Assembly (NCBI GenBank): GCA_018819225.1
Contig: JAHJQN010000007.1
Coordinates: 96,001-160,000 of the forward strand
Direction of reading: 5' to 3'
Source: Candidatus Micrarchaeota archaeon
GTDB lineage: Archaea > Micrarchaeota > Micrarchaeia > Norongarragalinales > SBBD01
DNA: 64,000 nt
The translations under genes were made by a program, and so were the position numbers. Each line of letters starts with the position of its first letter. The stretch's first letter is position 1. The notes under the pieces were generated by a model. It saw nothing but the letters and a program-made list of their open reading frames with translations. It was not told the DNA's origin and searched no databases. Shown here one piece after another: positions 6,662 to 25,057 of the stretch.

Positions 6662-8677
6662 GTGCCGCTACATCAGTTAGCGAAAACGGTTTCGGGTTCC
6701 GAAAACCCGCACTGGGCCTTTATTTCCCGCGTCCTGTTGCGACGGGCTACGGCCGAGTTCAGCCAAAGCACTCATTCCGTTCAATGGAACGGATTCGTTT
6801 CTCCAAACCGAGATTACCCGTACGAAGGGTTTTCCGCTGTTTTCGGGAACGAAAACTGGAAGTTCTTGGATGCGCTCGGCCTAGCTTGTACTTGCCCGGA
6901 GACCCGTTTGACTCCCCTCCAAGTCACCGCTTTCCCGTGGAAAGTCACTTACCAATACGCCATCCATCCTTCTCGCAATACCACGCTGTCTGTAGAATAC
7001 TATTTGCTTAAGTCCAACCCATTCCCTTGCTTGCACGTTCGAATTCAACTATCCCCGGAATCGCTTCCAGAAAATCGCTTGCTTATTGCGCCTCTTCTCG
7101 ACATGCGTCCCTCCGACCAATCCGCTTTTCCATACCAATACGCCGTTTCGAACGGATCCGACCAAGTCATCATGAAAAACGTGTTTTCGCATTACTCGTT
7201 GTTAATGACGTCCCGCGGTTTGAAGAAAACAAACGAGGGGTTTTCAATGCCTTGGCAATACAAACTCGGCAGCGGCGAACGCGAGGGATCGTCGGGTTTT
7301 CCCAAGGCGTTGTCCGAGACCCGTTCGCTCTATTGTCCCGGCGTCTATTCCGTTCCTTTGAACCGCGAAACCGTTCTCCAATTCACGGCGTACCCGAGCA
7401 ATACGCCTCCTGCCCATTATTCGAGTGACGAAACCCGGGAACTCAAACAACTCGCATCTCTTATCCGTCGTCTCCGTCCCACACTGAAAAAAGCGGAGGT
7501 TCGGTGGGGTAAAGGTACTGCAGACGCCCTTGCCATCCGTTCCCTTGTTTTTCTTGACAAGTTTTCCTTCCGTTCCCCTTTCGGCGCCAAGGATGCCGGT
7601 GCGTATTGGTTCCGACAACCATGGACGCGCGACCTATTCGAAAGCACTTACATCAACTACGATGCCATTGCTTCCACAAAACCGGATTGGATGACTCGCT
7701 TGATTTCTTCGACGTGGTCCATGCAAAACAACGGGTTCCTTCCCCGTCTGCTCAATGATCCTGATTCCGGTCAAAGCGTTGACGGCACGTTGTATGCTCT
7801 GCTAACCTCCCACCGGTTCCAATCCGCGAATCAATCTCCAGCGTTCCGGGAACGCCTACTTCAAGCTGGCCATTCATTTATCGAAGCCGTCGCACGCCAA
7901 GGCATGCTCGACCCTCATTTTTCCCTCCTCAAAACGCCCGCGGATGCCTCATGGATCGACTCCCGCATTCCTTACCCCCATTCACCTGTTCCCATCATGG
8001 CTCCGTCCCGTCTTCCTGCCGAATGGGCGAACGCCCTCCTTACATCGTCAACTAATCCATCGGCCGCAATCCAAGAACCCCGTTATTACTTAGCGGAAGT
8101 CAACGCGTTATGGGTCGAATTTTTACGCGCACGCCATTCCTTGAAACCCAGCGAGGCGACGACGACATTGAAAAGTAACGCCGCCTTCCAATTCAAGCAC
8201 GTGTTTTTCGGCGAAGTTCCGTGCGGTATGGCCCGCGACGATCTCGTTCTATCCGATGAGGAAGTGGCGACGTGGATTCAGGCGGCGGCCCTTGCGCCCT
8301 CCTCTTTTACGGATCTTGAAGCCCGCGAGCTACTCGACCGCGCCGACCCGTATCTCGTCCGTCGGAACCATCAATTGTTCGGCGTCCTCGTAAAAAAAGG
8401 TCCGCGCACTCCCTTCTTCGACGACCGTCAATATCACGGCGCCGTTGCCTGGCCGAAAACGAATCCCTATCTCTATTCCCTGCTGATGCGAGCAGGAAAA
8501 ACGCGGGAAGCGGAATCTCTTTTGTTGTCCGTTCTCGATCACCAGCAGAATGAAGGCGCTTTGTTCTACACGCACGAACTCTTTTCCCCCGAAGCCCAAC
8601 CCGTTCCCGTCAAGAATCCCGCGCAACTCTTTTCCCAGTACGTTCAGCCCTACTATGATTTTCTTCAACGCGTCTAG
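6662..8677 (+). CDS. Amylo-alpha-1,6-glucosidase / glycogen debranching enzyme-like protein
   Basis: AGAYWF..WTRD, SVDGTL, SWID, EVNALW, YHGAVAWP motifs; context with GH57 and GT4 genes. Confidence 0.75.
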   Translation: MPLHQLAKTVSGSENPHWAFISRVLLRRATAEFSQSTHSVQWNGFVSPNRDYPYEGFSAVFGNENWKFLDALGLACTCPETRLTPLQVTAFPWKVTYQYAIHPSRNTTLSVEYYLLKSNPFPCLHVRIQLSPESLPENRLLIAPLLDMRPSDQSAFPYQYAVSNGSDQVIMKNVFSHYSLLMTSRGLKKTNEGFSMPWQYKLGSGEREGSSGFPKALSETRSLYCPGVYSVPLNRETVLQFTAYPSNTPPAHYSSDETRELKQLASLIRRLRPTLKKAEVRWGKGTADALAIRSLVFLDKFSFRSPFGAKDAGAYWFRQPWTRDLFESTYINYDAIASTKPDWMTRLISSTWSMQNNGFLPRLLNDPDSGQSVDGTLYALLTSHRFQSANQSPAFRERLLQAGHSFIEAVARQGMLDPHFSLLKTPADASWIDSRIPYPHSPVPIMAPSRLPAEWANALLTSSTNPSAAIQEPRYYLAEVNALWVEFLRARHSLKPSEATTTLKSNAAFQFKHVFFGEVPCGMARDDLVLSDEEVATWIQAAALAPSSFTDLEARELLDRADPYLVRRNHQLFGVLVKKGPRTPFFDDRQYHGAVAWPKTNPYLYSLLMRAGKTREAESLLLSVLDHQQNEGALFYTHELFSPEAQPVPVKNPAQLFSQYVQPYYDFLQRV

Positions 8678-9345
8678 AAGAATTCGCTCAGTTTCACTTC
8701 CGTTAACTTGAGGCGCTTCACCGTATCCCATTCCCAACGAATGTGCTTCTTCAAACGCTTGTCTCCCCCATGCTTTTTCAAGAACGAAATCGTGCGGCCA
8801 TCCGACGGATAACCGCTCCCCATTTCCTCTCCAAACATTTCCTGCAGCTCCAACACGCGCTTTTCTCTCTGGCTCTTCGCCAGAATGGACGCCGCGCCCG
8901 CCACCACGTACTTCACATCCGCCTTATTCTCGCTCACAATCTCTACGCCCTTCAACTTGAACGACAAATGTTTTCGAATACGGTGCTCGAACTTTTTAGG
9001 AACGGAATCCGGCGAGTCCACGAACACGCGTTCCACCTCCTGTTTTTTATACAGCTTCTCCAACGCCTCCGCCACTTTAATTGCTTCCACGTCGTTCAAG
9101 CTCGTCTTATTCCGCATGAACCGCGTGATCTCTTCCGCCGACACCTCCACCAGCACATGCGGATACCCCGCGAGTTTCTCCGCCAACGCTTCCCGCTTGC
9201 TATCCGAAAGCAATTTCGAGTCTTTGACGCCCCAACGCTTCAACTTCTTTTCCTCCGAAGCATGGCACGCGAACACTCCGATGATTAGCGGTCCGATAAC
9301 CGGCCCCCGGCCCGCCTCGTCGACTCCGGCAATCATTCGAATCAT
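8674..9345 (-). CDS. rnhB: Ribonuclease HII
   Basis: GVDEAGRGPVIGPL, VKDSK, GSGYPSD, PIP-box-like tail KLSEFF. Confidence 0.96.
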   Translation of the reverse strand: MIRMIAGVDEAGRGPVIGPLIIGVFACHASEEKKLKRWGVKDSKLLSDSKREALAEKLAGYPHVLVEVSAEEITRFMRNKTSLNDVEAIKVAEALEKLYKKQEVERVFVDSPDSVPKKFEHRIRKHLSFKLKGVEIVSENKADVKYVVAGAASILAKSQREKRVLELQEMFGEEMGSGYPSDGRTISFLKKHGGDKRLKKHIRWEWDTVKRLKLTEVKLSEFF

Positions 9346-10501: not shown

Positions 10502-10514
10502 AACCATTTATATT
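10502..10514 (+). promoter_or_regulatory. BRE/TATA promoter of the tRNA-Trp gene
   Basis: AACCATTTATAT about 30 nt upstream of tRNA position 1; similar elements precede many genes in this window. Confidence 0.6.
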
Positions 10515-10540
10515 TCTTCATTGCGCCATTCTGTTGTTCT

Positions 10541-10804
10541 GGGGTCATAGTATAACTTGGCAGAACAGTAGCGACCTCTTTCTTTTCCAAAAAGAAAGAC
10601 CTCGACGAGAAAGAAAAGGGCATGCGGTCGCTGAAGCTCCAGTTCTTTCATGGCTTTTCATCAAGCCAAAAGAACGCCAAGTTAACGGCGTGAGGTAGTC
10701 TGAGCGTTAAGCGATGATTAGAGTGCCTGGAGCTCGGAATCATGAAGAGAAAACAGGCTCTACGGAGATACCTACGGATGGGGGTTCGAATCCCCCTGAC
10801 CCCA
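10541..10804 (+). tRNA. trnW: tRNA-Trp(CCA) with two introns; exons 10541-10571, 10636-10642, 10770-10804
   Basis: Acceptor stem GGGGTCA/TGACCCC+A; T arm GGGGG TTCGAAT CCCCC; spliced anticodon arm GTAGG-CTCCAGA-CCTAC; BHB-type central helices CAGT/GCTG (intron 30/31, 10572-10635) and CTCC/GGAG (intron 37/38, 10643-10769). Confidence 0.92.
10689..10748 (+). ncRNA. Intron-encoded box C/D guide RNA for tRNA-Trp Cm34 and Cm39
   Basis: CTGA 10700-10703 follows a guide pairing with TACCT (G at -5 pairs with C39); ATGATTA 10714-10720; guide CTGGAGCT plus degenerate D box CGGA 10735-10738 (G at -5 pairs with C34). Confidence 0.8.
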
Positions 10805-10805
10805 T

Positions 10806-10838
10806 GTCTGCGTCGGGGCTCTGCCCCCTTGTCCAGAC
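10806..10838. terminator. Hairpin between the convergent tRNA-Trp and GNAT genes
   Basis: GTCTG..GGGGC TCT GCCCC..CAGAC inverted repeat. Confidence 0.35.
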
Positions 10839-10855
10839 TGTTCGCTCCCCTTCCC

Positions 10856-11980
10856 TTATTTTGAGGGTTTCCGGAATCGACCAGTCGGATGCGATAAGAA
10901 AACTCGTCTTCTGGAAACCATGTAGTCAACGAGCGCTTTATTCATCCAAGGCGCGCCTGCTCCGACTCCGTAATTTTCATACAAGTGCGTAGATAGAATG
11001 CGTTTCCAATCGCGTGCCGAGGACGGAGCCTTCCGACTTAAATTCAAGTAGAATAGATCCACGGGAGAACTGCTTCGAACTAAATCCGCTTTCTTCTTGT
11101 ATATTGACGCGTTGGGTTCTCCTGCTCCTGAATATTCGAGGGCGGGCGATATTCCGCGGACGCCTTCCACTATCTGGAACCCGAGTTTGGCTCGGATAGC
11201 GGATGCCCTCAAGCGGTTCAGGATTTCAAGAAGCTCCGACTCCTGCTCTTCATTTCTTGTTTTCCTCTTTTTCAGAGATTCCATTCGGCCGATATCTTTC
11301 CGAGTCAGCGGTTCCCCTTCGATTAGAAAGTGTTCCGCCCCATTTTGAACGGCTTTACGAATTCGCGCATTCATCATTTCCGTTCCCAGTCCTTTCCCGA
11401 GGTATGCCGGGTTCACGGCAATATACTCTCCTACTGCCACTTTCGGTTTTCCGGGCTTCCGGCTCGTATGGGTCGTGGCGACTCCCACGATTTTCCTTTC
11501 CTCGTTGCGCGCGACCATGAAGTCATATTGGGGCCAGAATTCATGCATGCGGTTTTCTCGGAAGCTGTCGCGGAATCCGCTCAACGGCGAACGGTCTTCT
11601 CCGTGAAACGTCCTTCGAAGCAACCGGAACGCATCCGCTAATGAATTCCGTTGCGAGATTTCCTCTTTCGTCATCGTCGAATGTTTGAGCCTGCGAACGG
11701 ATGCTCCTAATCCTTTCACGGGGTTTTGCGCATTTCGAGTAAACGGAAGTCCGTATCTTCCCCTTTCGAAAGAAGCATCGTGTTGCCGCCATCCCATTCT
11801 ACGGATAAGTTCTCGCGAGTTCATGTTGCGGATCGCAGAAAAATCCGGCCGAGCGACATACGGGACGTGTTCTAACGTGATTGTTTCGCCCGTTTTCAAC
11901 CGCACGAGTTGAGGCCGCTCAAAAGAGCGTTTTCTAACGCTTGCGGGGTTGACCCGGCGAAGCGCTTCCGGCAAAGGCAT
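10856..11980 (-). CDS. GNAT-family N-acetyltransferase domain protein with long basic extensions
   Basis: EYIAVNPAYLGKGLGTEMM (motif A) and KLGF. Confidence 0.8.
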   Translation of the reverse strand: MPLPEALRRVNPASVRKRSFERPQLVRLKTGETITLEHVPYVARPDFSAIRNMNSRELIRRMGWRQHDASFERGRYGLPFTRNAQNPVKGLGASVRRLKHSTMTKEEISQRNSLADAFRLLRRTFHGEDRSPLSGFRDSFRENRMHEFWPQYDFMVARNEERKIVGVATTHTSRKPGKPKVAVGEYIAVNPAYLGKGLGTEMMNARIRKAVQNGAEHFLIEGEPLTRKDIGRMESLKKRKTRNEEQESELLEILNRLRASAIRAKLGFQIVEGVRGISPALEYSGAGEPNASIYKKKADLVRSSSPVDLFYLNLSRKAPSSARDWKRILSTHLYENYGVGAGAPWMNKALVDYMVSRRRVFLSHPTGRFRKPSK

Positions 11981-12015: not shown

Positions 12016-13542
12016 CTATATTTTCCTAACCCATCCGTTCGTCGCGTCCACGTCAACCCTTTCGCCGTCCTTCAACACTTTCGTCGCGATTTTTGTTCCG
12101 ATCAGGCATGGAATGCCGAGCTCCCTGCTCACGATGGCCGCGTGGCATGTTACGCCTCCTTGATCCGTAACAATTGCGGCTGCTTTCTTCATCGCAGGGA
12201 CCACGTCCGGGTTCGTCGCGTAAGCTACCAGAATATCGCCTTCATTCATTTTGGTCATGTCCGCAGCTTCTTGGATGATTTTAACCGTCCCTACCGCTTT
12301 ACCCAGCGAGGCGCACTGTCCTTTCAGCTCTTTCACGTCCATATCGATTTTTTCTTTCGCATCCTCCCCTTGTTTTCGGGCCGCATCCCCTATTAACACT
12401 TGACAAAATCCTTTCTCCGCATACAATGTGCAGAAGATCGTGCGTTCCCGAAGTAATGCGCGATCGATGCGCCCTTCCTTCAAAGCCATCTCGATTTCCT
12501 CAAACAACATGCAACGCATTTCGTGGTTGCTGATGTTCAACCGATCCGCGATTTCCTGAATCAACGCGTCCATGTGGTAAAGGGAAGTGATTTGCGCGTA
12601 TCTCCGGTACCATTTCGTCATCATGAATTCGGCGTATACGGCAAACAACTCGCGGTGGTACTCGTCGAATTCCAATTGTTTCTCGAGCTGTTCTTTTCTC
12701 TCGCGGTGTTCTTCAATGACTTCATCCATTTCCGCAAACGTTCTTTCCGCGTTTTTTCCGCTCTTGAAGAATTCGGCGAATTCCTTCAAGTAGTGTTCGA
12801 ATGCGTAGGGGATTCCGTAGTACATGAACCCTAACGGCTTGTACTTTTCCCAATGGGCTTCGATTTTTTTCCGTATGGCCGGAGGCAAACCCAAACGAAT
12901 GTGCTCGATGTCCTTTGAAAACAAGTTTTTCACGTATGCGTCCTTCCCGATTTCTTTCGCGATCCCCAAGAACTCTTTCGCCTGCCGGTTTTCTTCGCTT
13001 TCCGTGTCCGGAGTCGTTAAGGGCACGAGCCACGTGTTCACTTCCGTCTCATCCTTCGCTTTTTTTCGAATGTATTCCTTCAACGTATTCGTGTACTCCG
13101 GAAAAAACATGTCCGTTGAATTACTGAGCCAGCCCCATTCGTACAATCGCGTGTGCACTTCGAAGAATCCGTTCATCAACTCCCATAATTCGGCATTGCT
13201 TTTTTCTTTCAGGTTGTGTTGGTTGATCCGGGTTTTCGTGTAATCGGTCATTTCATCCGACAGTTCCACGATGTTTTTATTGATCGTGTGCCCGAATGGC
13301 GGGTCATCGGTTATTTTCTTGAGCACGTGCTTTGTAAACTCCAAGCAGTCGTTCTTCCCGTAGTAGAAACTCATGTCCACGCCATCGAATACGCCTAGTA
13401 CCTTCCGGTAGTTCCTTCCCACGGAGTTCTCCATGTTATTCGCAAAAGCACGGATCCAGATCTGGGAGAAGAAGAAGTCCATGTTCGGGATGTCTTCTGC
13501 TTTCATCCACGGGTCTTTGTTGTGTAATTCCTGAGCACCCAT
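12016..13542 (-). CDS. PEP-utilising enzyme mobile (phospho-His swivel) domain protein, no ATP-grasp domain
   Basis: C-terminal GDILVA..TNPDVVPAMKKAAAIVTDQGGVTCHAAIVSRELGIPC; about 400-aa helical N-terminal region. Confidence 0.85.
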   Translation of the reverse strand: MGAQELHNKDPWMKAEDIPNMDFFFSQIWIRAFANNMENSVGRNYRKVLGVFDGVDMSFYYGKNDCLEFTKHVLKKITDDPPFGHTINKNIVELSDEMTDYTKTRINQHNLKEKSNAELWELMNGFFEVHTRLYEWGWLSNSTDMFFPEYTNTLKEYIRKKAKDETEVNTWLVPLTTPDTESEENRQAKEFLGIAKEIGKDAYVKNLFSKDIEHIRLGLPPAIRKKIEAHWEKYKPLGFMYYGIPYAFEHYLKEFAEFFKSGKNAERTFAEMDEVIEEHRERKEQLEKQLEFDEYHRELFAVYAEFMMTKWYRRYAQITSLYHMDALIQEIADRLNISNHEMRCMLFEEIEMALKEGRIDRALLRERTIFCTLYAEKGFCQVLIGDAARKQGEDAKEKIDMDVKELKGQCASLGKAVGTVKIIQEAADMTKMNEGDILVAYATNPDVVPAMKKAAAIVTDQGGVTCHAAIVSRELGIPCLIGTKIATKVLKDGERVDVDATNGWVRKI

Positions 13543-13612
13543 CGCGGTCACCGATATGTTACTACTTATTGGTACTTCCAATCCTATTTAATTTTACCCG
13601 CGTATGCGCGGC

Positions 13613-16846: not shown

Positions 16847-18502
16847 CTAGGGAGCGGTTTCGCTTGAGGACCTTTTTTGCGCAATGTGTTCCACGATCAC
16901 TCCGAACGCCGGTCTCGTTAGCCCGACTCCCAGCACGATTCCCACGATGGTCGCGAGCGCGAAACCCATCACTTCCACGATGCCCGAAAGCAGCAACGGT
17001 AGCATGCTCACGATCGCCACTCCCGCAACCGTGAAGATGATGAAGAACGCTTTTCCGATGCGATCCTTCAAACCCCTTCCATGCGCCAGTTCATCCTCTT
17101 CATCATCGCGTTTCCTGAGCACTTCGTCCGTGATAATGATTTGGTCGTCGACTCCGGATCCAATGATCGCCACAATTCCCGCAACCGCCGCCAAATCCAG
17201 TGTTCCGAATATTCCGATGAACGAGGTCGTGAGCACGATTTCCACTAAATTAACGAGAATAATGGGCACCAACAAATCCATTCGTCTGTACCGCCAAACA
17301 ATCAATCCCATTACCGCGATAATCGCCGTAAAAATGGCGATCGCGCTGAACATCAAGAACTGTTCTCCTAAGGAGGGAGCGACCACGTACGCGCTTCCAA
17401 GCACGGTACTCACGGGCAGCTTTCCTCCCGAGATCACGCTCTTCAAGAGCTTGATTTCTCCCAACGCGTTTTTCTGCGCATCCTGTTCCGTTACGCCTGA
17501 AACCGATCCGGTCACGGAATAGAATTGCGATACGTATCCGTCGGCCAGCCCGGCGGATAGCACGGGTGCGGAAATCAAGCCAATCGCCTTCCATTCGTTC
17601 ACGATTCTTCCTCGGATCTGCGAATCGTACGAGTTGATGATCATGTCCTTGTCGTCTTTGACGACGATCCGGTTTTCTGCAGCGGTTGGATCGTCCGTGA
17701 AGCCCGCGTTCTTGAGCGTTTGAATCAAATCGCTTCGTTCTTCCGCAAGACTCTTTCCAATAATGACTTCCGTCTTGTTTTCATCCACGATGCGTTCCGC
17801 CAACGGTTCCGAGCTTTGATTTTCCACAAACAATACCAGTAATTTGTCGCCCTCGATTTCCGTCAGATCTTCTATCGCCTCCTCCAGATCTTGTCGCGCG
17901 GCAAAGTTGACGCCTTGCTGCAGGTTTTCCGCGTCCACCAGGATAGCCGTATTCCGCGGCCGGTCCAAATACATGTAGACGGGGTAATTCTCTTTTCCTT
18001 CCGCGGCTTGCGCGAATCGTTCTCCTCCGGCCCTCGAGGATGCAAAATTCAATTCCCATTGCGCGGTCGTTCCTTGAGGTATAATCAATTCGCCGGAAGG
18101 ACCTCCGACCGCATTCTGAACGATATCCGTTCCCTCCAAACCGACGTTTCCGTCCACCACGGCTTCAAAACGACCTTGCTGCCTCAAAATGCGCTCGACG
18201 CTCCGGATAACGGACGCATCCGCTTGCGGAATTTCAACGATGATTTCCTTTCCGCCTAATGGGCGAACGATGCTTTGCGACAACCCGAATTTGTTGATGC
18301 GCTGCTTCAAGGTTTCAATCGTATCCGTCATTTGATCCGACGTCAAATCCTGTTCGCTAATGATTGAAATGGGAATGCGTACGCCTCCCTTGAACTCAAT
18401 GCCTAAGTTCAATCCGTTGACCGCTACGAGAACGAGCGCCAATGCTACGGCGACGATGACGAGCTGAATCCGCCGATTTTTTAGTAATTGAGTAGCGCTC
18501 AT
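16847..18502 (-). CDS. secD: Protein translocase subunit SecD
   Basis: GLNLGIEFKGG, RINKFGL, VAPSLG, IGSGVDDQIIITDE. Confidence 0.93.
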   Translation of the reverse strand: MSATQLLKNRRIQLVIVAVALALVLVAVNGLNLGIEFKGGVRIPISIISEQDLTSDQMTDTIETLKQRINKFGLSQSIVRPLGGKEIIVEIPQADASVIRSVERILRQQGRFEAVVDGNVGLEGTDIVQNAVGGPSGELIIPQGTTAQWELNFASSRAGGERFAQAAEGKENYPVYMYLDRPRNTAILVDAENLQQGVNFAARQDLEEAIEDLTEIEGDKLLVLFVENQSSEPLAERIVDENKTEVIIGKSLAEERSDLIQTLKNAGFTDDPTAAENRIVVKDDKDMIINSYDSQIRGRIVNEWKAIGLISAPVLSAGLADGYVSQFYSVTGSVSGVTEQDAQKNALGEIKLLKSVISGGKLPVSTVLGSAYVVAPSLGEQFLMFSAIAIFTAIIAVMGLIVWRYRRMDLLVPIILVNLVEIVLTTSFIGIFGTLDLAAVAGIVAIIGSGVDDQIIITDEVLRKRDDEEDELAHGRGLKDRIGKAFFIIFTVAGVAIVSMLPLLLSGIVEVMGFALATIVGIVLGVGLTRPAFGVIVEHIAQKRSSSETAP

Positions 18503-24403: not shown

Positions 24404-25057
24404 ATGCATTCCCCGCATCCCGGAGTTTATCGTGTCAACGGCCGGTTAGCTACTTGCAATCTGGCTCCCGGTCACAAAGTATACGGAGAGGACCTCGTCA
24501 AGCAAAACGGTAAGGAATTGCGGTCGTGGGACGCAAAACGCAGCAAGCTGGCCGCGGCTCTCGTAAACGGACTGCGTCTTTTTCCGTTCCAGGACGGGGC
24601 GCGCATCCTCTACTTAGGCGCCGCTTCCGGCACCACTCCTTCTCATGTCAGCGATCTCGTGGGGAAAAAAGGGGTCGTGTATTGCGTCGAGTTTTCGGCT
24701 ACGGTCGCGCGGGACTTGATTGCGGTCTGCGAAACGCGCGAGAACATGCTGCCTATCGTGGATGACGCTCGTTTTCCCGAACGCTATTCCGACGTCGGAG
24801 AAGTGGACGTGATTTATGAGGATGTGGCGGATCGCGAACAAGTATTGATTCTGGAAGAGAACGCCAAACGATTCCTGAAGGACGGCGGGCTGGCATTTTT
24901 TGCCGTAAAATCGCGCTCCATTGATTCCACGCGTCCTCCCAAACAAGTCTATTCCGAAGTCATTACGCGTTTGCTGCGCTCTTTCGATGTTCTGGAGAAA
25001 ATCCGCATCGATCCGTTCCATCGCGACCACTTGTTCTTAGTGCTTCGCAAGCGGTAG
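24404..25057 (+). CDS. flpA: Fibrillarin-like rRNA/tRNA 2'-O-methyltransferase
   Basis: VYGE, RSKLAAA, LYLGAASGTTPSHVSD, PFHRDH. Confidence 0.95.
   Translation: MHSPHPGVYRVNGRLATCNLAPGHKVYGEDLVKQNGKELRSWDAKRSKLAAALVNGLRLFPFQDGARILYLGAASGTTPSHVSDLVGKKGVVYCVEFSATVARDLIAVCETRENMLPIVDDARFPERYSDVGEVDVIYEDVADREQVLILEENAKRFLKDGGLAFFAVKSRSIDSTRPPKQVYSEVITRLLRSFDVLEKIRIDPFHRDHLFLVLRKR

What the first reader, a model, noticed from the sequence alone, without database searches (positions are those of the whole stretch)
10541..10804. tRNA-Trp split by two introns around a 7-nt anticodon micro-exon, implying ordered splicing
Seen: exons 10541-10571, 10636-10642 (GCTCCAG) and 10770-10804 rebuild a cloverleaf (one D-stem mismatch). 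Intron 1 (64 nt, non-canonical site 30/31) has central helix CAGT/GCTG with AG|C and AA|G bulges. Intron 2 (127 nt, site 37/38) has CTCC/GGAG with AG|T and AT|A bulges. Known: multi-intron tRNAs occur in Thermoproteales and ARMAN archaea. Inference: the exon-side helix of intron 2 (GTAGG/CCTAC) exists only after intron 1 is removed, so splicing should be ordered. Standard tRNA finders may miss this gene.
Basis: partly seen in the sequence, partly recalled or inferred. Interest (0 to 1): 0.75.

Follow-up and report, generated by a model that had tools for sequence, protein, structure and literature searches.

The report
Two-intron tryptophan tRNA gene, Micrarchaeota
This is a real and apparently the only tryptophan tRNA gene of a tiny DPANN (Micrarchaeota) archaeon, cut into three pieces by two introns so that the anticodon lies on a 7-base piece; such heavily interrupted tRNA genes and the enzyme that splices them are already known for this group, so it is a good but not surprising find.

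Summary
Joining 10541-10571, 10636-10642 and 10770-10804 gives a 73-nt tRNA-Trp(CCA). ARAGORN accepts the joined sequence, but ARAGORN and Rfam both miss the raw locus.

The genome is a Micrarchaeota MAG. It encodes a full-length ortholog of the broad-specificity ARMAN-2 epsilon2 splicing endonuclease, plus RtcB, fibrillarin, Nop5 and L7Ae.

Thirty orthologous genes show conserved exons with compensatory stem changes and very variable introns. Intron 1 (30/31) occurs in 7 of 68 genomes of the order, in four genera. Its relaxed bulge-helix-bulge motif shows covariation.

Its guides point at C34 and C39.

The core of intron 1 is a copy of a hairpin repeat found almost only at tRNA loci.

Ordered splicing (intron 1 first) is supported only in silico. 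The anticodon-stem helix that intron 2 needs has 1 contiguous pair before intron 1 is removed and 5 after.

The same 30/31 + 37/38 layout occurs in this genome's tRNA-Ile(UAU), which earlier notes of this scan had already recorded.

Verdict: new member of a known kind.

The parts
10507..10515 (+). A/T-rich TATA-like box (TTTATATTT), 26-34 nt upstream of the tRNA 5' end
   Evidence: Read. The other tRNA genes of this genome carry similar TTTAWAW boxes at about -26 to -37. Promoter function is inferred.
10541..10571 (+). Exon 1: tRNA positions 1-30 (acceptor 5' strand, D arm, 5' strand of the anticodon stem up to G30)
   Evidence: The 5' half is conserved in 28 Micrarchaeota species.
10572..10635 (+). 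Intron 1, 64 nt, at non-canonical position 30/31. It has a relaxed HBh' motif: central helix 10566-10569 x 10630-10633, 5' bulge AG|C, inner helix 10573-10576 x 10626-10629, 3' site AA|G with no outer helix
   Evidence: the motif is present in all 7 orthologs with this intron. The central pair covaries (T.G / T-A / C-G) and so does the inner helix (GACC/GGTC, GGGG/CTCC, GAC/GTC, GGC/GCC).
10577..10599 (+). Pyrimidine-tract / loop / purine-tract hairpin. It is the core of a roughly 50-nt repeat element (about 10572-10621) that fills intron 1
   Evidence: The same element lies in the introns of tRNA-Asp (C7:4516-4649) and tRNA-Leu(UAA) (C2:3313xx). 8 of 10 such hairpins in the genome lie within 150 nt of a tRNA-like hit. 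Many copies occur in relatives.
10636..10642 (+). Micro-exon GCTCCAG: tRNA positions 31-37, including the anticodon C34 C35 A36
   Evidence: The sequence is invariant in 30 orthologs, whether or not it is split off by intron 1.
10643..10769 (+). Intron 2, 127 nt, at canonical position 37/38. It is of hBH (bulge-helix-loop) type: central helix C32-C35 x GGAG 10764-10767, bulges AG|T and AT|A, and the anticodon stem as outer helix. It carries a box C/D guide RNA
   Evidence: ARAGORN finds it as a canonical intron once intron 1 is removed.
10676..10684 (+). GCCAAGTTA, a 9-nt perfect complement of D-loop nt 13-21 (window 10553-10561)
   Evidence: an 8-10 bp complement sits at the same place in 7 of 7 genes with intron 1, with compensatory changes, and is mostly absent in the 23 genes without it. 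Its function is unknown.
10693..10703 (+). D' guide (AGGTAGT) plus box D' (CTGA, 10700-10703). [quoted passage not shown]
   Evidence: 7-11 bp duplexes in most orthologs, with compensatory changes (ACCCG / CGGGT). In our gene only 5 contiguous pairs remain.
10711..10717 (+). Box C' (GCGATGA), joined to D' by a short stem-loop
   Evidence: Read. There is a weak similarity to a C/D snoRNA model, 18.1 bits and below threshold.
10726..10738 (+). D guide CCTGGAGCT (10726-10734) plus box D variant CGGA (10735-10738). [quoted passage not shown]
   Evidence: TGGAGC-N-NNGA at fixed spacing in 30 of 30 orthologs.
10742..10748 (+). Box C-like motif ATGAAGA, 3 nt after box D. This is a non-standard order
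   Evidence: RTGANGA follows box D by 3-4 nt in the close relatives. The meaning of this order was not resolved.
10770..10804 (+). Exon 3: tRNA positions 38-73 (3' strand of the anticodon stem, 4-nt variable region, T arm, acceptor 3' strand, discriminator A73). No CCA is encoded

Best explanation
The locus is the functional, and apparently only, tRNA-Trp(CCA) gene of a Micrarchaeota (DPANN) archaeon.

Shown by sequence and comparison:
- The gene is transcribed as a 264-nt precursor in which two protein-spliced introns interrupt the anticodon arm. Intron 1 (64 nt) lies at 30/31 and intron 2 (127 nt) at 37/38. Nucleotides 31-37, with the anticodon, are left on a 7-nt micro-exon.
- Intron 1 has a relaxed bulge-helix-bulge motif: a central helix and an inner helix, but no outer helix.
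- Intron 2 has a central helix and relies on the anticodon stem as its outer helix.
- The genome encodes the epsilon2 three-unit endonuclease, which is known to cut such relaxed motifs, and the RtcB ligase.
- Intron 2 carries a box C/D guide RNA. Its two antisense elements obey the fifth-nucleotide rule for 2'-O-methylation of C34 (in the micro-exon) and C39.
- Intron 1's core is a copy of a hairpin repeat that colonises tRNA introns in this lineage.

Inferred:
- EndA cuts and RtcB joins in two rounds.
- Intron 1 most likely goes first. Its motif does not depend on the rest of the precursor, and its removal rebuilds the helix that intron 2 needs.
- Two separate rounds also avoid releasing a free 7-nt piece.
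- The excised or still embedded intron 2, with L7Ae, Nop5 and fibrillarin, methylates C34 and C39.
For: - In-silico splicing gives a tRNA-Trp.
- Orthologs without intron 1 score 43-57 bits on the Rfam tRNA model against a cut-off of 29.
- 19 distinct spliced orthologs show compensatory changes in the acceptor, anticodon and T stems.
- The locus is 76% identical over its whole length to a relative of another genus, with the exons best conserved.
- Intron 1 is present in 7 of 68 genomes of the order, and the reversed control pattern gave 0 hits.
- The intron 1 motif covaries.
- EndA matches PDB 4FZ2 (ARMAN-2 epsilon2) at E 6e-125 over its full length. That enzyme cuts strict and relaxed motifs in vitro (PMC3239211).
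- RtcB, fibrillarin, Nop5 and L7Ae are present.
- The guide rules hold in 30 of 30 genes for C34 and in most for C39.
- For the splicing order: intron 2's outer helix has 1 contiguous bp before and 5 after intron 1 removal in 7 of 7 genes, and its inner helix has 0-2 bp. The pair probability of intron 2's helix and the anticodon stem is about 0 in full precursors. It rises to 0.10-0.56 in 4 of 7 genes after intron 1 removal, while intron 1's helix is unaffected by intron 2.
- No second tRNA-Trp was found.
- A TATA-like box like those of other tRNA genes lies upstream.
Against: - There are no RNA data of any kind. Expression, cleavage sites, order and methylation are all inferred.
- In our gene a helix slipped by 3 nt (UAGCGACC/GGUCGCUG) is 5.3 kcal/mol more stable than the productive register of intron 1. 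The predicted probability of the productive helix is therefore about 0.
- After intron 1 removal the predicted probability of intron 2's motif is still only 0.11 in our gene, and below 0.01 in three orthologs.
- All 7 genes with intron 1 have a perfect GGAG helix, against 6 of 23 genes without it. This would be unnecessary if intron 1 always left first.
- The D' guide of our gene has only 5 contiguous pairs. Box D is CGGA, and the box C-like motif lies after box D.
- The genome is about 90% complete, so a second tRNA-Trp on unassembled DNA cannot be excluded.
Confidence: 0.85

Rival explanations
1. The gene model is the same, but splicing is not ordered. The epsilon2 endonuclease cuts both motifs independently, in either order or at the same time. 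The pieces are held in place by the tRNA body and by pairing of the micro-exon with intron 2.
For: - The epsilon2 enzyme accepts relaxed motifs (PMC3239211; PMC12397907).
- Intron 2's central helix is perfect (GGAG) in all 7 genes with intron 1, against 6 of 23 without. The D guide also pairs with the whole micro-exon in these 7. Both would help intron 2's sites to be presented while intron 1 is still there.
- Predicted probabilities of either motif are low in our gene, so protein binding, not RNA thermodynamics, probably decides.
Against: - Intron 2 has no inner helix, and only 1 contiguous outer pair before intron 1 is removed.
- Its motif has a probability of about 0 in all 7 full precursors.
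- Simultaneous cutting would free a 7-nt piece held by a single G31-C39 pair once intron 2 is gone (inference).
- Ordered removal has a precedent in the three-intron tRNA-Ile(UAU) of Cyanidioschyzon merolae (PMC9602550).
Confidence: 0.35
2. The locus is a decaying or silent copy, and the working tRNA-Trp lies in the unassembled tenth of the genome.
For: - The genome is 90% complete in 8 contigs.
- In our gene a slipped helix competes with intron 1's motif.
- The D' guide is weakened.
Against: - The exons are intact, with all conserved tRNA nucleotides.
- The same architecture is kept in 7 species of 4 genera with compensatory changes.
- No relative showed a second copy of the 5' half.
- A TATA-like box is present.
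- No other locus in the genome resembles the exons.
Confidence: 0.04
3. The locus is a single-intron tRNA of another identity. This is ARAGORN's reading of the raw locus as tRNA-Lys(CTT) with a 173-nt intron.
For: ARAGORN with the intron option reports it.
Against: - That fold has mismatches in the D and anticodon stems, an odd long variable arm and no bulge-helix-bulge motif.
- Its anticodon lies in intron 1 sequence, which is replaced by unrelated sequence in orthologs.
- The Trp reading is conserved in 30 genes.
Confidence: 0.01

Closest known systems
Multi-intron pre-tRNAs of Candidatus Micrarchaeum acidiphilum ARMAN-2 and its epsilon2 three-unit splicing endonuclease (Fujishima et al. 2011, PMC3239211; structures 4FZ2 and 9W2K)
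   Same: - Same phylum.
- Same enzyme type: full-length match at E 6e-125.
- A high share of interrupted tRNA genes, non-canonical positions and relaxed motifs.
- That paper already shows two introns a few bases apart, leaving a micro-exon: tRNA-Pro(GGG) with introns at 53/54 and 59/60.
   Different: - Here the micro-exon is the anticodon piece (31-37) of tRNA-Trp, and the introns are at 30/31 and 37/38.
- One of the two introns is a box C/D guide.
- tRNA-Trp is not mentioned in the text of that paper, and its supplementary tables were not available.
Box C/D guide intron of euryarchaeal pre-tRNA-Trp (Haloferax volcanii and others: Clouet d'Orval et al. 2001; Singh et al. 2004; as summarised in PMC11408192 and PMC7714728)
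   Same: - Same tRNA and same canonical position.
- Similar length: 103 nt in H. volcanii, 127 nt here.
- Two antisense elements aimed at positions 34 and 39.
- Competition between guide pairing and the splicing motif for the same nucleotides.
- The intron is circularised after excision in H. volcanii.
   Different: - The host is a DPANN archaeon, not a euryarchaeon.
- Position 39 is C, not U.
- The box C-like motif follows box D instead of preceding the first guide.
- An extra D-loop complement is present.
- The target of the C34 guide is isolated on a micro-exon by a second intron.
- The original papers were not held, so the box order in Haloferax could not be compared directly.
Multiple-intron tRNAs and intron transposition in Thermoproteales (Sugahara et al. 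2007, 2008; Fujishima et al. 2010; reviewed in PMC4033280 and PMC4090602)
   Same: - Up to three introns per tRNA.
- Relaxed hBH and HBh' motifs.
- Near-identical intron sequences in different tRNA genes of one genome. Here the intron 1 core is also found in the tRNA-Asp and tRNA-Leu introns.
   Different: - A different phylum and a different endonuclease architecture: (alpha-beta)2 there, epsilon2 here.
- The shared unit here is a short pyrimidine/purine hairpin repeat that also lies beside tRNA genes, not only inside introns.
Ordered removal of the three introns of tRNA-Ile(UAU) in the red alga Cyanidioschyzon merolae (Soma et al. 2013; PMC9602550)
   Same: A multi-intron tRNA in which the non-canonical introns are removed before the anticodon-loop intron, judged from the intermediates detected.
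   Different: [quoted passage not shown]
- The order there was shown experimentally. Here it is only predicted.
Permuted box C/D sRNA24 of Nanoarchaeum equitans, which is functional only as a circle (Randau 2012, PMC3491384)
   Same: The box order is not the standard C-guide-D'-C'-guide-D in the linear molecule. Circularisation would restore it. tRNA introns are circularised by RtcB.
   Different: That RNA is a free-standing gene, not a tRNA intron. In our intron the linker that circularisation would create between box C and the first guide is much longer than the usual 10-12 nt.

Membership tests
Archaeal tRNA-Trp(CCA) | A cloverleaf with 7-bp acceptor stem, 5-bp anticodon and T stems, a 7-nt anticodon loop with CCA, and the conserved nucleotides (U8, A14, G18G19, U33, GTTCGAAT T-loop) | tested here: met
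   ARAGORN on the joined exons gives tRNA-Trp(cca), 73 nt. The conserved nucleotides were read.
Archaeal tRNA-Trp(CCA) | Archaeal/eukaryal Trp identity set: discriminator A73 and G1-C72 (from my own knowledge of TrpRS identity elements) | tested here: met
   A73 and G1-C72 are present in our gene. G1-C72 is present in all 19 distinct orthologs.
Archaeal tRNA-Trp(CCA) | Stems kept by compensatory changes across orthologs | tested here: met
   Double changes at pairs 5-68, 6-67, 7-66, 27-43, 28-42, 29-41, 49-65 and 50-64. 18-19 of 19 sequences are paired at each stem position except the conserved A12.A23.
Archaeal tRNA-Trp(CCA) | Covariance-model score of the spliced product above threshold | not testable with these tools
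Orthologs without intron 1 score 43.3-57.4 bits against a cut-off of 29. Our raw locus gives only a 19.3-bit partial hit.
Archaeal tRNA-Trp(CCA) | Expression, CCA addition and aminoacylation with tryptophan | not testable with these tools
   No RNA data. Only a TATA-like box shared with other tRNA genes supports expression.
Bulge-helix-bulge introns cut by archaeal EndA | A 4-bp central helix flanked by two 3-nt bulges, each cut after its second nucleotide | tested here: met
   Intron 1: CAGT/GCTG with AG|C and AA|G. Intron 2: CTCC/GGAG with AG|T and AT|A.
Bulge-helix-bulge introns cut by archaeal EndA | Both flanking helices present (strict hBHBh') | tested here: not met
   Intron 1 has only the inner helix (HBh'). 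Intron 2 has only the outer helix (hBH), and that helix is contiguous only after intron 1 is removed. Both are therefore relaxed motifs, which need a broad-specificity enzyme.
Bulge-helix-bulge introns cut by archaeal EndA | The genome encodes an endonuclease able to cut relaxed motifs, and the RtcB ligase | tested here: met
   A 387-aa EndA matches ARMAN-2 epsilon2 (4FZ2) over residues 11-387 at E 6e-125. RtcB scores 578 bits.
Bulge-helix-bulge introns cut by archaeal EndA | The motif is the preferred fold of the precursor | tested here: inconclusive
   Intron 1's productive register is 0.6 kcal/mol above the local optimum in three orthologs, but 5.3 kcal/mol above it in our gene. Pair probabilities are 0-0.31.
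Bulge-helix-bulge introns cut by archaeal EndA | Cleavage at the predicted sites | not testable with these tools
   This needs an enzyme assay or RNA reads.
Box C/D methylation guide RNA (tRNA-Trp intron type) | An antisense element ending one nucleotide before a D-type box, so that the fifth nucleotide upstream pairs with the target | tested here: met
   C34 guide: TGGAGC-N-NNGA in 30 of 30 genes. C39 guide: 7-11 bp in most genes, with compensatory changes, but only 5 contiguous pairs in our gene.
Box C/D methylation guide RNA (tRNA-Trp intron type) | Consensus boxes in the order C, D', C', D | tested here: inconclusive
   D' (CTGA) and C' (GCGATGA) are good. D is CGGA. The only box C-like motif (ATGAAGA) lies 3 nt after D, and none precedes the first guide.
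Box C/D methylation guide RNA (tRNA-Trp intron type) | A match to a curated C/D family | tested here: not met
   Only sub-threshold matches: ceN106 at 18.1 bits against 60, and sR1 and sR43 at about 11 bits against 45. Such short, divergent guides rarely reach these thresholds.
Box C/D methylation guide RNA (tRNA-Trp intron type) | The partner proteins L7Ae, Nop5 and fibrillarin are encoded | tested here: met
   The fibrillarin gene lies in this window at 24407-25048.
Box C/D methylation guide RNA (tRNA-Trp intron type) | Cm34 and Cm39 are present in the mature tRNA | not testable with these tools
   This needs RiboMethSeq or mass spectrometry.
Transposing tRNA-intron elements (Thermoproteales type) | Near-identical intron sequence in tRNA genes of different identity within one genome | tested here: met
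   The intron 1 core matches 87% over 47 nt in the tRNA-Asp intron, and is also present in the tRNA-Leu(UAA) intron. 8 of 10 such hairpins lie at tRNA loci, which cover 1.1% of the genome.

The most novel reading that the evidence does not exclude
Intron 2 is more than a guide RNA. In the genes that also carry intron 1, it acts in cis as a scaffold that pairs with three separate exon segments: the D-loop (nt 13-22), the whole micro-exon (31-37) and the 3' strand of the anticodon stem (38-43).

This would open the D arm so that nt 25-28 can form intron 1's motif. It would tether the 7-nt micro-exon during cutting and joining. It would also couple methylation of C34 and C39 to an obligatory order, intron 1 then intron 2. 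That is cooperation between two introns of one tRNA.

The D-loop complement co-occurs with intron 1 in 7 of 7 genes with compensatory changes and is mostly missing in the 23 genes without it. However, only two clades are involved.
Probability: 0.15. Interest if true: 0.7.

Novelty: new member of a known kind. Interest (0 to 1): 0.4.

Why it matters
This gene is needed to read UGG, and the two finders tried here (ARAGORN and the Rfam tRNA model) miss it. Annotations of this and six related genomes may therefore lack tRNA-Trp, which could be misread as gene loss in a reduced symbiont.

The locus also joins three known things in one small gene: a multi-intron tRNA, a self-targeting box C/D intron and a tRNA-associated mini-repeat. 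Natural variants exist among relatives: no intron, one intron, 30/31 plus 37/38, and 37/38 plus a T-loop intron.

That makes it a compact system for two questions. One is whether archaeal multi-intron tRNAs are spliced in a fixed order. The other is how new tRNA introns arise. The structurally characterised ARMAN-2 enzyme is available as a close stand-in for in vitro work.

Tried and rejected
1. ARAGORN's tRNA-Lys(CTT) reading of the raw locus was rejected. The fold is poor, it has no splicing motif and it is not conserved.

2. ARAGORN's 'tRNA-Trp' at G000:C2:102805-102898 is tRNA-Arg(CCG). It has a strict bulge-helix-bulge motif at 37/38 and a 108-nt intron.

3. I wrote a SPLITS-like screen. 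It takes every pair of sites with a 4-bp central helix plus one 3-bp flanking helix, removes one or two candidates, and then runs ARAGORN. I ran it over all 38 Rfam tRNA-like loci. It gave many false solutions. The only two further CCA solutions were chimeras with mismatched acceptor stems, and both were rejected.
   - The screen did not recover our own gene when both introns were defined on the unspliced sequence. Intron 2 passes the criteria only after intron 1 is removed. This illustrates the order argument, but it also shows the limits of the screen.

None has a tRNA-Trp 5' exon upstream, so it added no orthologs.

5. Clouet d'Orval 2001, Bortolin 2003 and Sugahara 2007 are not held. The box order of the Haloferax intron, and any earlier statement on ordered splicing in Thermoproteales, could not be checked. 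I recall that Sugahara 2007 discussed motifs that appear only after another intron is removed, but that is memory, not a test.

6. The D-loop complement as a third methylation guide: no D-type box lies at the right distance (read), so this is not supported.

7. The library search for Micrarchaeota together with tRNA introns and sRNA found no paper on this gene.
Full report
**1. What is there**

- Exon 1 is 10541-10571, intron 1 is 10572-10635 (64 nt) and the micro-exon GCTCCAG is 10636-10642.
- Intron 2 is 10643-10769 (127 nt) and exon 3 is 10770-10804.

Neither ARAGORN nor Rfam at gathering score sees a gene in the raw window. The tRNA model gives only a 19.3-bit partial hit over the 3' part.

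Joined in silico, the three exons give a 73-nt sequence that ARAGORN calls tRNA-Trp(CCA).
- The acceptor, anticodon and T stems are perfect.
- The conserved tRNA nucleotides and discriminator A73 are present, and no CCA is encoded.
- The D stem has one A.A mismatch and one G.U pair.

With intron 1 alone removed, ARAGORN finds tRNA-Trp with a 127-nt canonical intron. ARAGORN's own reading of the raw locus, tRNA-Lys(CTT) with a 173-nt intron, is a poor fold.

**2. Whose gene it is**

The window is contig C6:96001-160000 of a 1.37-Mb, 50.5% G+C genome, about 90% complete.
- A pattern for the tRNA's 5' half hits 28 species in the genome collection. 26 are labelled Candidatus Micrarchaeota, Micrarchaeia, Norongarragalinales or Fermentimicrarchaeum, and two only 'archaeon'.
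- The genome's single EndA gene (387 aa) matches the epsilon2 three-unit endonuclease of ARMAN-2 (PDB 4FZ2) over its whole length at E 6e-125.
- That enzyme cuts both strict and relaxed bulge-helix-bulge motifs in vitro, and ARMAN-2 has 56% interrupted tRNA genes (PMC3239211).
- RtcB, fibrillarin (inside this window at 24407-25048), Nop5 and L7Ae are present.
- Only 12 tRNA genes of the genome are intron-free. The remaining Rfam tRNA-like hits are long or partial.

**3. Comparative support**

I extracted tRNA-Trp genes from 30 genomes.
- Spliced sequences are 84-96% identical to ours, while intron 2 ranges from 43 to 289 nt.
- Stem pairs show compensatory changes, including pairs that join exon 1 to exon 3: 5-68 C-G/U-A, 7-66 A-U/G-C, 27-43 G-C/A-U/C-G and 49-65 G-C/C-G.
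- The A12.A23 mismatch is conserved in 18 of 19 distinct sequences.
- Orthologs that lack intron 1 pass the Rfam tRNA model at 43-57 bits, so intron 1 is what hides our gene.

Intron content is very fluid.
- One MAG has an intron-free gene (L050).
- Most genes have only the canonical intron.
- Genus g4 of our family has the canonical intron plus a long T-loop intron.
- Intron 1 at 30/31 occurs in 7 of 68 genomes of the order: genera g1 (ours), g2 and g3 of family f1, and g16 of family f7. The reversed control pattern gave no hit.

**4. The two splicing motifs**

Intron 1:
- In all 7 genes the exon sequence CAGY pairs with RCTG just before the last two intron bases.
- The 5' site lies in a 3-nt bulge (AG|N) closed by an inner helix.
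- The 3' site (AA|G or AC|G) follows the central helix with no outer helix. This is the relaxed HBh' form.
- One central pair covaries (T.G, T-A, C-G). The inner helix changes by compensation: GACC/GGTC, GGGG/CTCC, GAC/GTC, GGC/GCC.

Intron 2:
- CTCC (nt 32-35) pairs with GGAG.
- The bulges are AG|T and AT|A.
- There is no adjacent inner helix (0-2 bp in 29 of 30 genes), so the anticodon stem is the only flanking helix. This is the hBH form.

A caveat applies to our gene. Because the exon reads CAG-TAG and the intron starts with C, a continuous helix slipped by 3 nt is 5.3 kcal/mol better than the productive register. In three orthologs the gap is only 0.6 kcal/mol.

**5. Order of splicing**

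- In the 7 genes with intron 1, the outer helix of intron 2 has 1 contiguous pair in the primary transcript and 5 after intron 1 is removed.
- Partition-function folding gives about 0 probability for intron 2's central helix and for the anticodon stem in all 7 full precursors.
- After intron 1 removal these rise to 0.10-0.56 in four genes (0.11 in ours) and stay low in three.
- Intron 1's helix has the same probability with or without intron 2.
- My motif screen likewise accepted intron 2 only after intron 1 was removed.
- Cutting both introns at once would free a 7-nt piece. This is inference.

Intron 1 first is therefore the better-supported order, and it has a precedent in a red alga (PMC9602550). 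It is not shown.

Three points weigh against a strict order. The numbers are for naked RNA. The enzyme is permissive. The perfect GGAG in 7 of 7 genes with intron 1, against 6 of 23 without, suggests that intron 2's motif may have to form while intron 1 is still present.

**6. Intron 2 is a box C/D guide**

All 30 genes carry TGGAGC, one base, then a D-type box (CTGA; CGGA in ours). The fifth base upstream of the box therefore pairs with C34. In our gene the guide (10726-10734) pairs with the entire micro-exon.

A second element upstream of box D' (CTGA, 10700-10703) pairs across the 3' splice junction, with its fifth base opposite C39. Relatives show 7-11 bp with compensatory changes (ACCCG with CGGGT). 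Ours has only 5 contiguous pairs.

This matches the box C/D intron of euryarchaeal tRNA-Trp, which guides Cm34 and Um39, acts in trans and is found as a circle (PMC11408192; PMC7714728).

The box order here is unusual: guide, D', stem, C', guide, D, then a C-like box 3-4 nt later. It may need the intron's closing helix or circularisation, as for a permuted sRNA of Nanoarchaeum (PMC3491384). An earlier first-reader note of this scan on 10643-10769 raised the same point. I had reached the C/D reading independently.

**7. Intron 1's core is a repeat**

Bases 10572-10621 resemble the introns of tRNA-Asp (87% over 47 nt) and tRNA-Leu(UAA) in this genome, and many sites in relatives. Of 10 pyrimidine-tract/loop/purine-tract hairpins in the genome, 8 lie within 150 nt of a tRNA-like hit, a zone that covers 1.1% of the genome.

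Orthologs in g2 and g16 have unrelated GC-rich cores between the same intron ends. The intron at 30/31 therefore looks older than its present filling.

**8. Is it the only tRNA-Trp?**

- No other locus resembles the exons.
- ARAGORN's other 'Trp' is tRNA-Arg(CCG) with a strict motif.
- Two further CCA solutions from my screen are chimeras.
- The genome is incomplete, so this is 'none found', not proof.

**9. An unexplained extra**

All 7 genes with intron 1 have an 8-10 bp complement of D-loop nt 13-22 in intron 2 (ours 10676-10684 with 10553-10561). They show compensatory changes: CUUGGCAG/CUGCCAAG against CCUGGCAG/CUGUCAGG. Most of the other 23 genes lack it. It has no box at guide distance. 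Only two clades are involved, so the link may be historical.

**10. Verdict**

This is a real, well-supported gene. Its kind is already described for this lineage: a multi-intron tRNA with a micro-exon, spliced by epsilon2 EndA. The C/D intron is the known tRNA-Trp type. The same 30/31 + 37/38 layout, with a 7-nt micro-exon TCTTATA, occurs in this genome's tRNA-Ile(UAU) (noted earlier in this scan).

It is a new member of a known kind. It has some features worth an experiment: the splicing order, the D-loop complement and the box order.

Noticed in passing
G000:C4, about 17300-17500 (outside the window): tRNA-Ile(UAU) has the same architecture as this tRNA-Trp. Its introns are at 30/31 and 37/38, and a 7-nt micro-exon TCTTATA carries the anticodon.
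   Followed up: partly
G000:C2:102770-102960, minus strand (outside the window): This is tRNA-Arg(CCG) with a 108-nt canonical intron and a strict bulge-helix-bulge motif. ARAGORN miscalls it Trp. A second copy of about 20 nt of its 3' end lies about 50 nt downstream, like an integration scar.
   Followed up: partly
L026, L029, L031, L032, L040, L041 (genus g4); L036, L051, L055: These tRNA-Trp genes lack intron 1. Instead they have a long T-loop intron (about 60-185 nt) packed with the same pyrimidine/purine hairpin repeats. Some also carry the repeats in the 3' part of the C/D intron.
   Followed up: partly
L050:2013-2085: An intron-free tRNA-Trp (57.4 bits on the Rfam tRNA model) in one MAG labelled only 'archaeon'. 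It is the only ortholog found without the C/D intron.
   Followed up: no
L037, L045, L052, L055 (intron 2 of 43-55 nt): These are minimal C/D introns. The C34 guide comes first, directly after a GTGA-like motif, and no clear position-39 guide is left. They may be a one-guide version of the intron.
   Followed up: no
window 10566-10576 with 10626-10633: A continuous 8-bp helix, slipped by 3 nt (TAGCGACC with GGTCGCTG), competes with the productive register of intron 1. It is predicted to be 5.3 kcal/mol more stable. The closest relative avoids it through two base differences.
   Followed up: yes
window 24407-25048 (+): The fibrillarin gene, which encodes the methyltransferase that would use the intron 2 guide, lies 14 kb downstream in the same window.
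   Followed up: no
G000:C3:111057-111166 and C5:31-140: The same 110-nt intron-containing tRNA hit, with identical scores, lies at the end of contig C3 and at the start of contig C5. These two contigs probably overlap and could be joined.
   Followed up: no
window 8674-9345 (-), 10856-11980 (-), 12016-13581 (-): The neighbouring genes are RNase HII, a GNAT acetyltransferase and a protein with a PEP-utilising mobile domain. The tRNA lies on the opposite strand between a 202-aa ORF of no known family and the acetyltransferase. The short ORFs overlapping the tRNA (10648-10929, 10714-10992) are most likely spurious.
   Followed up: partly
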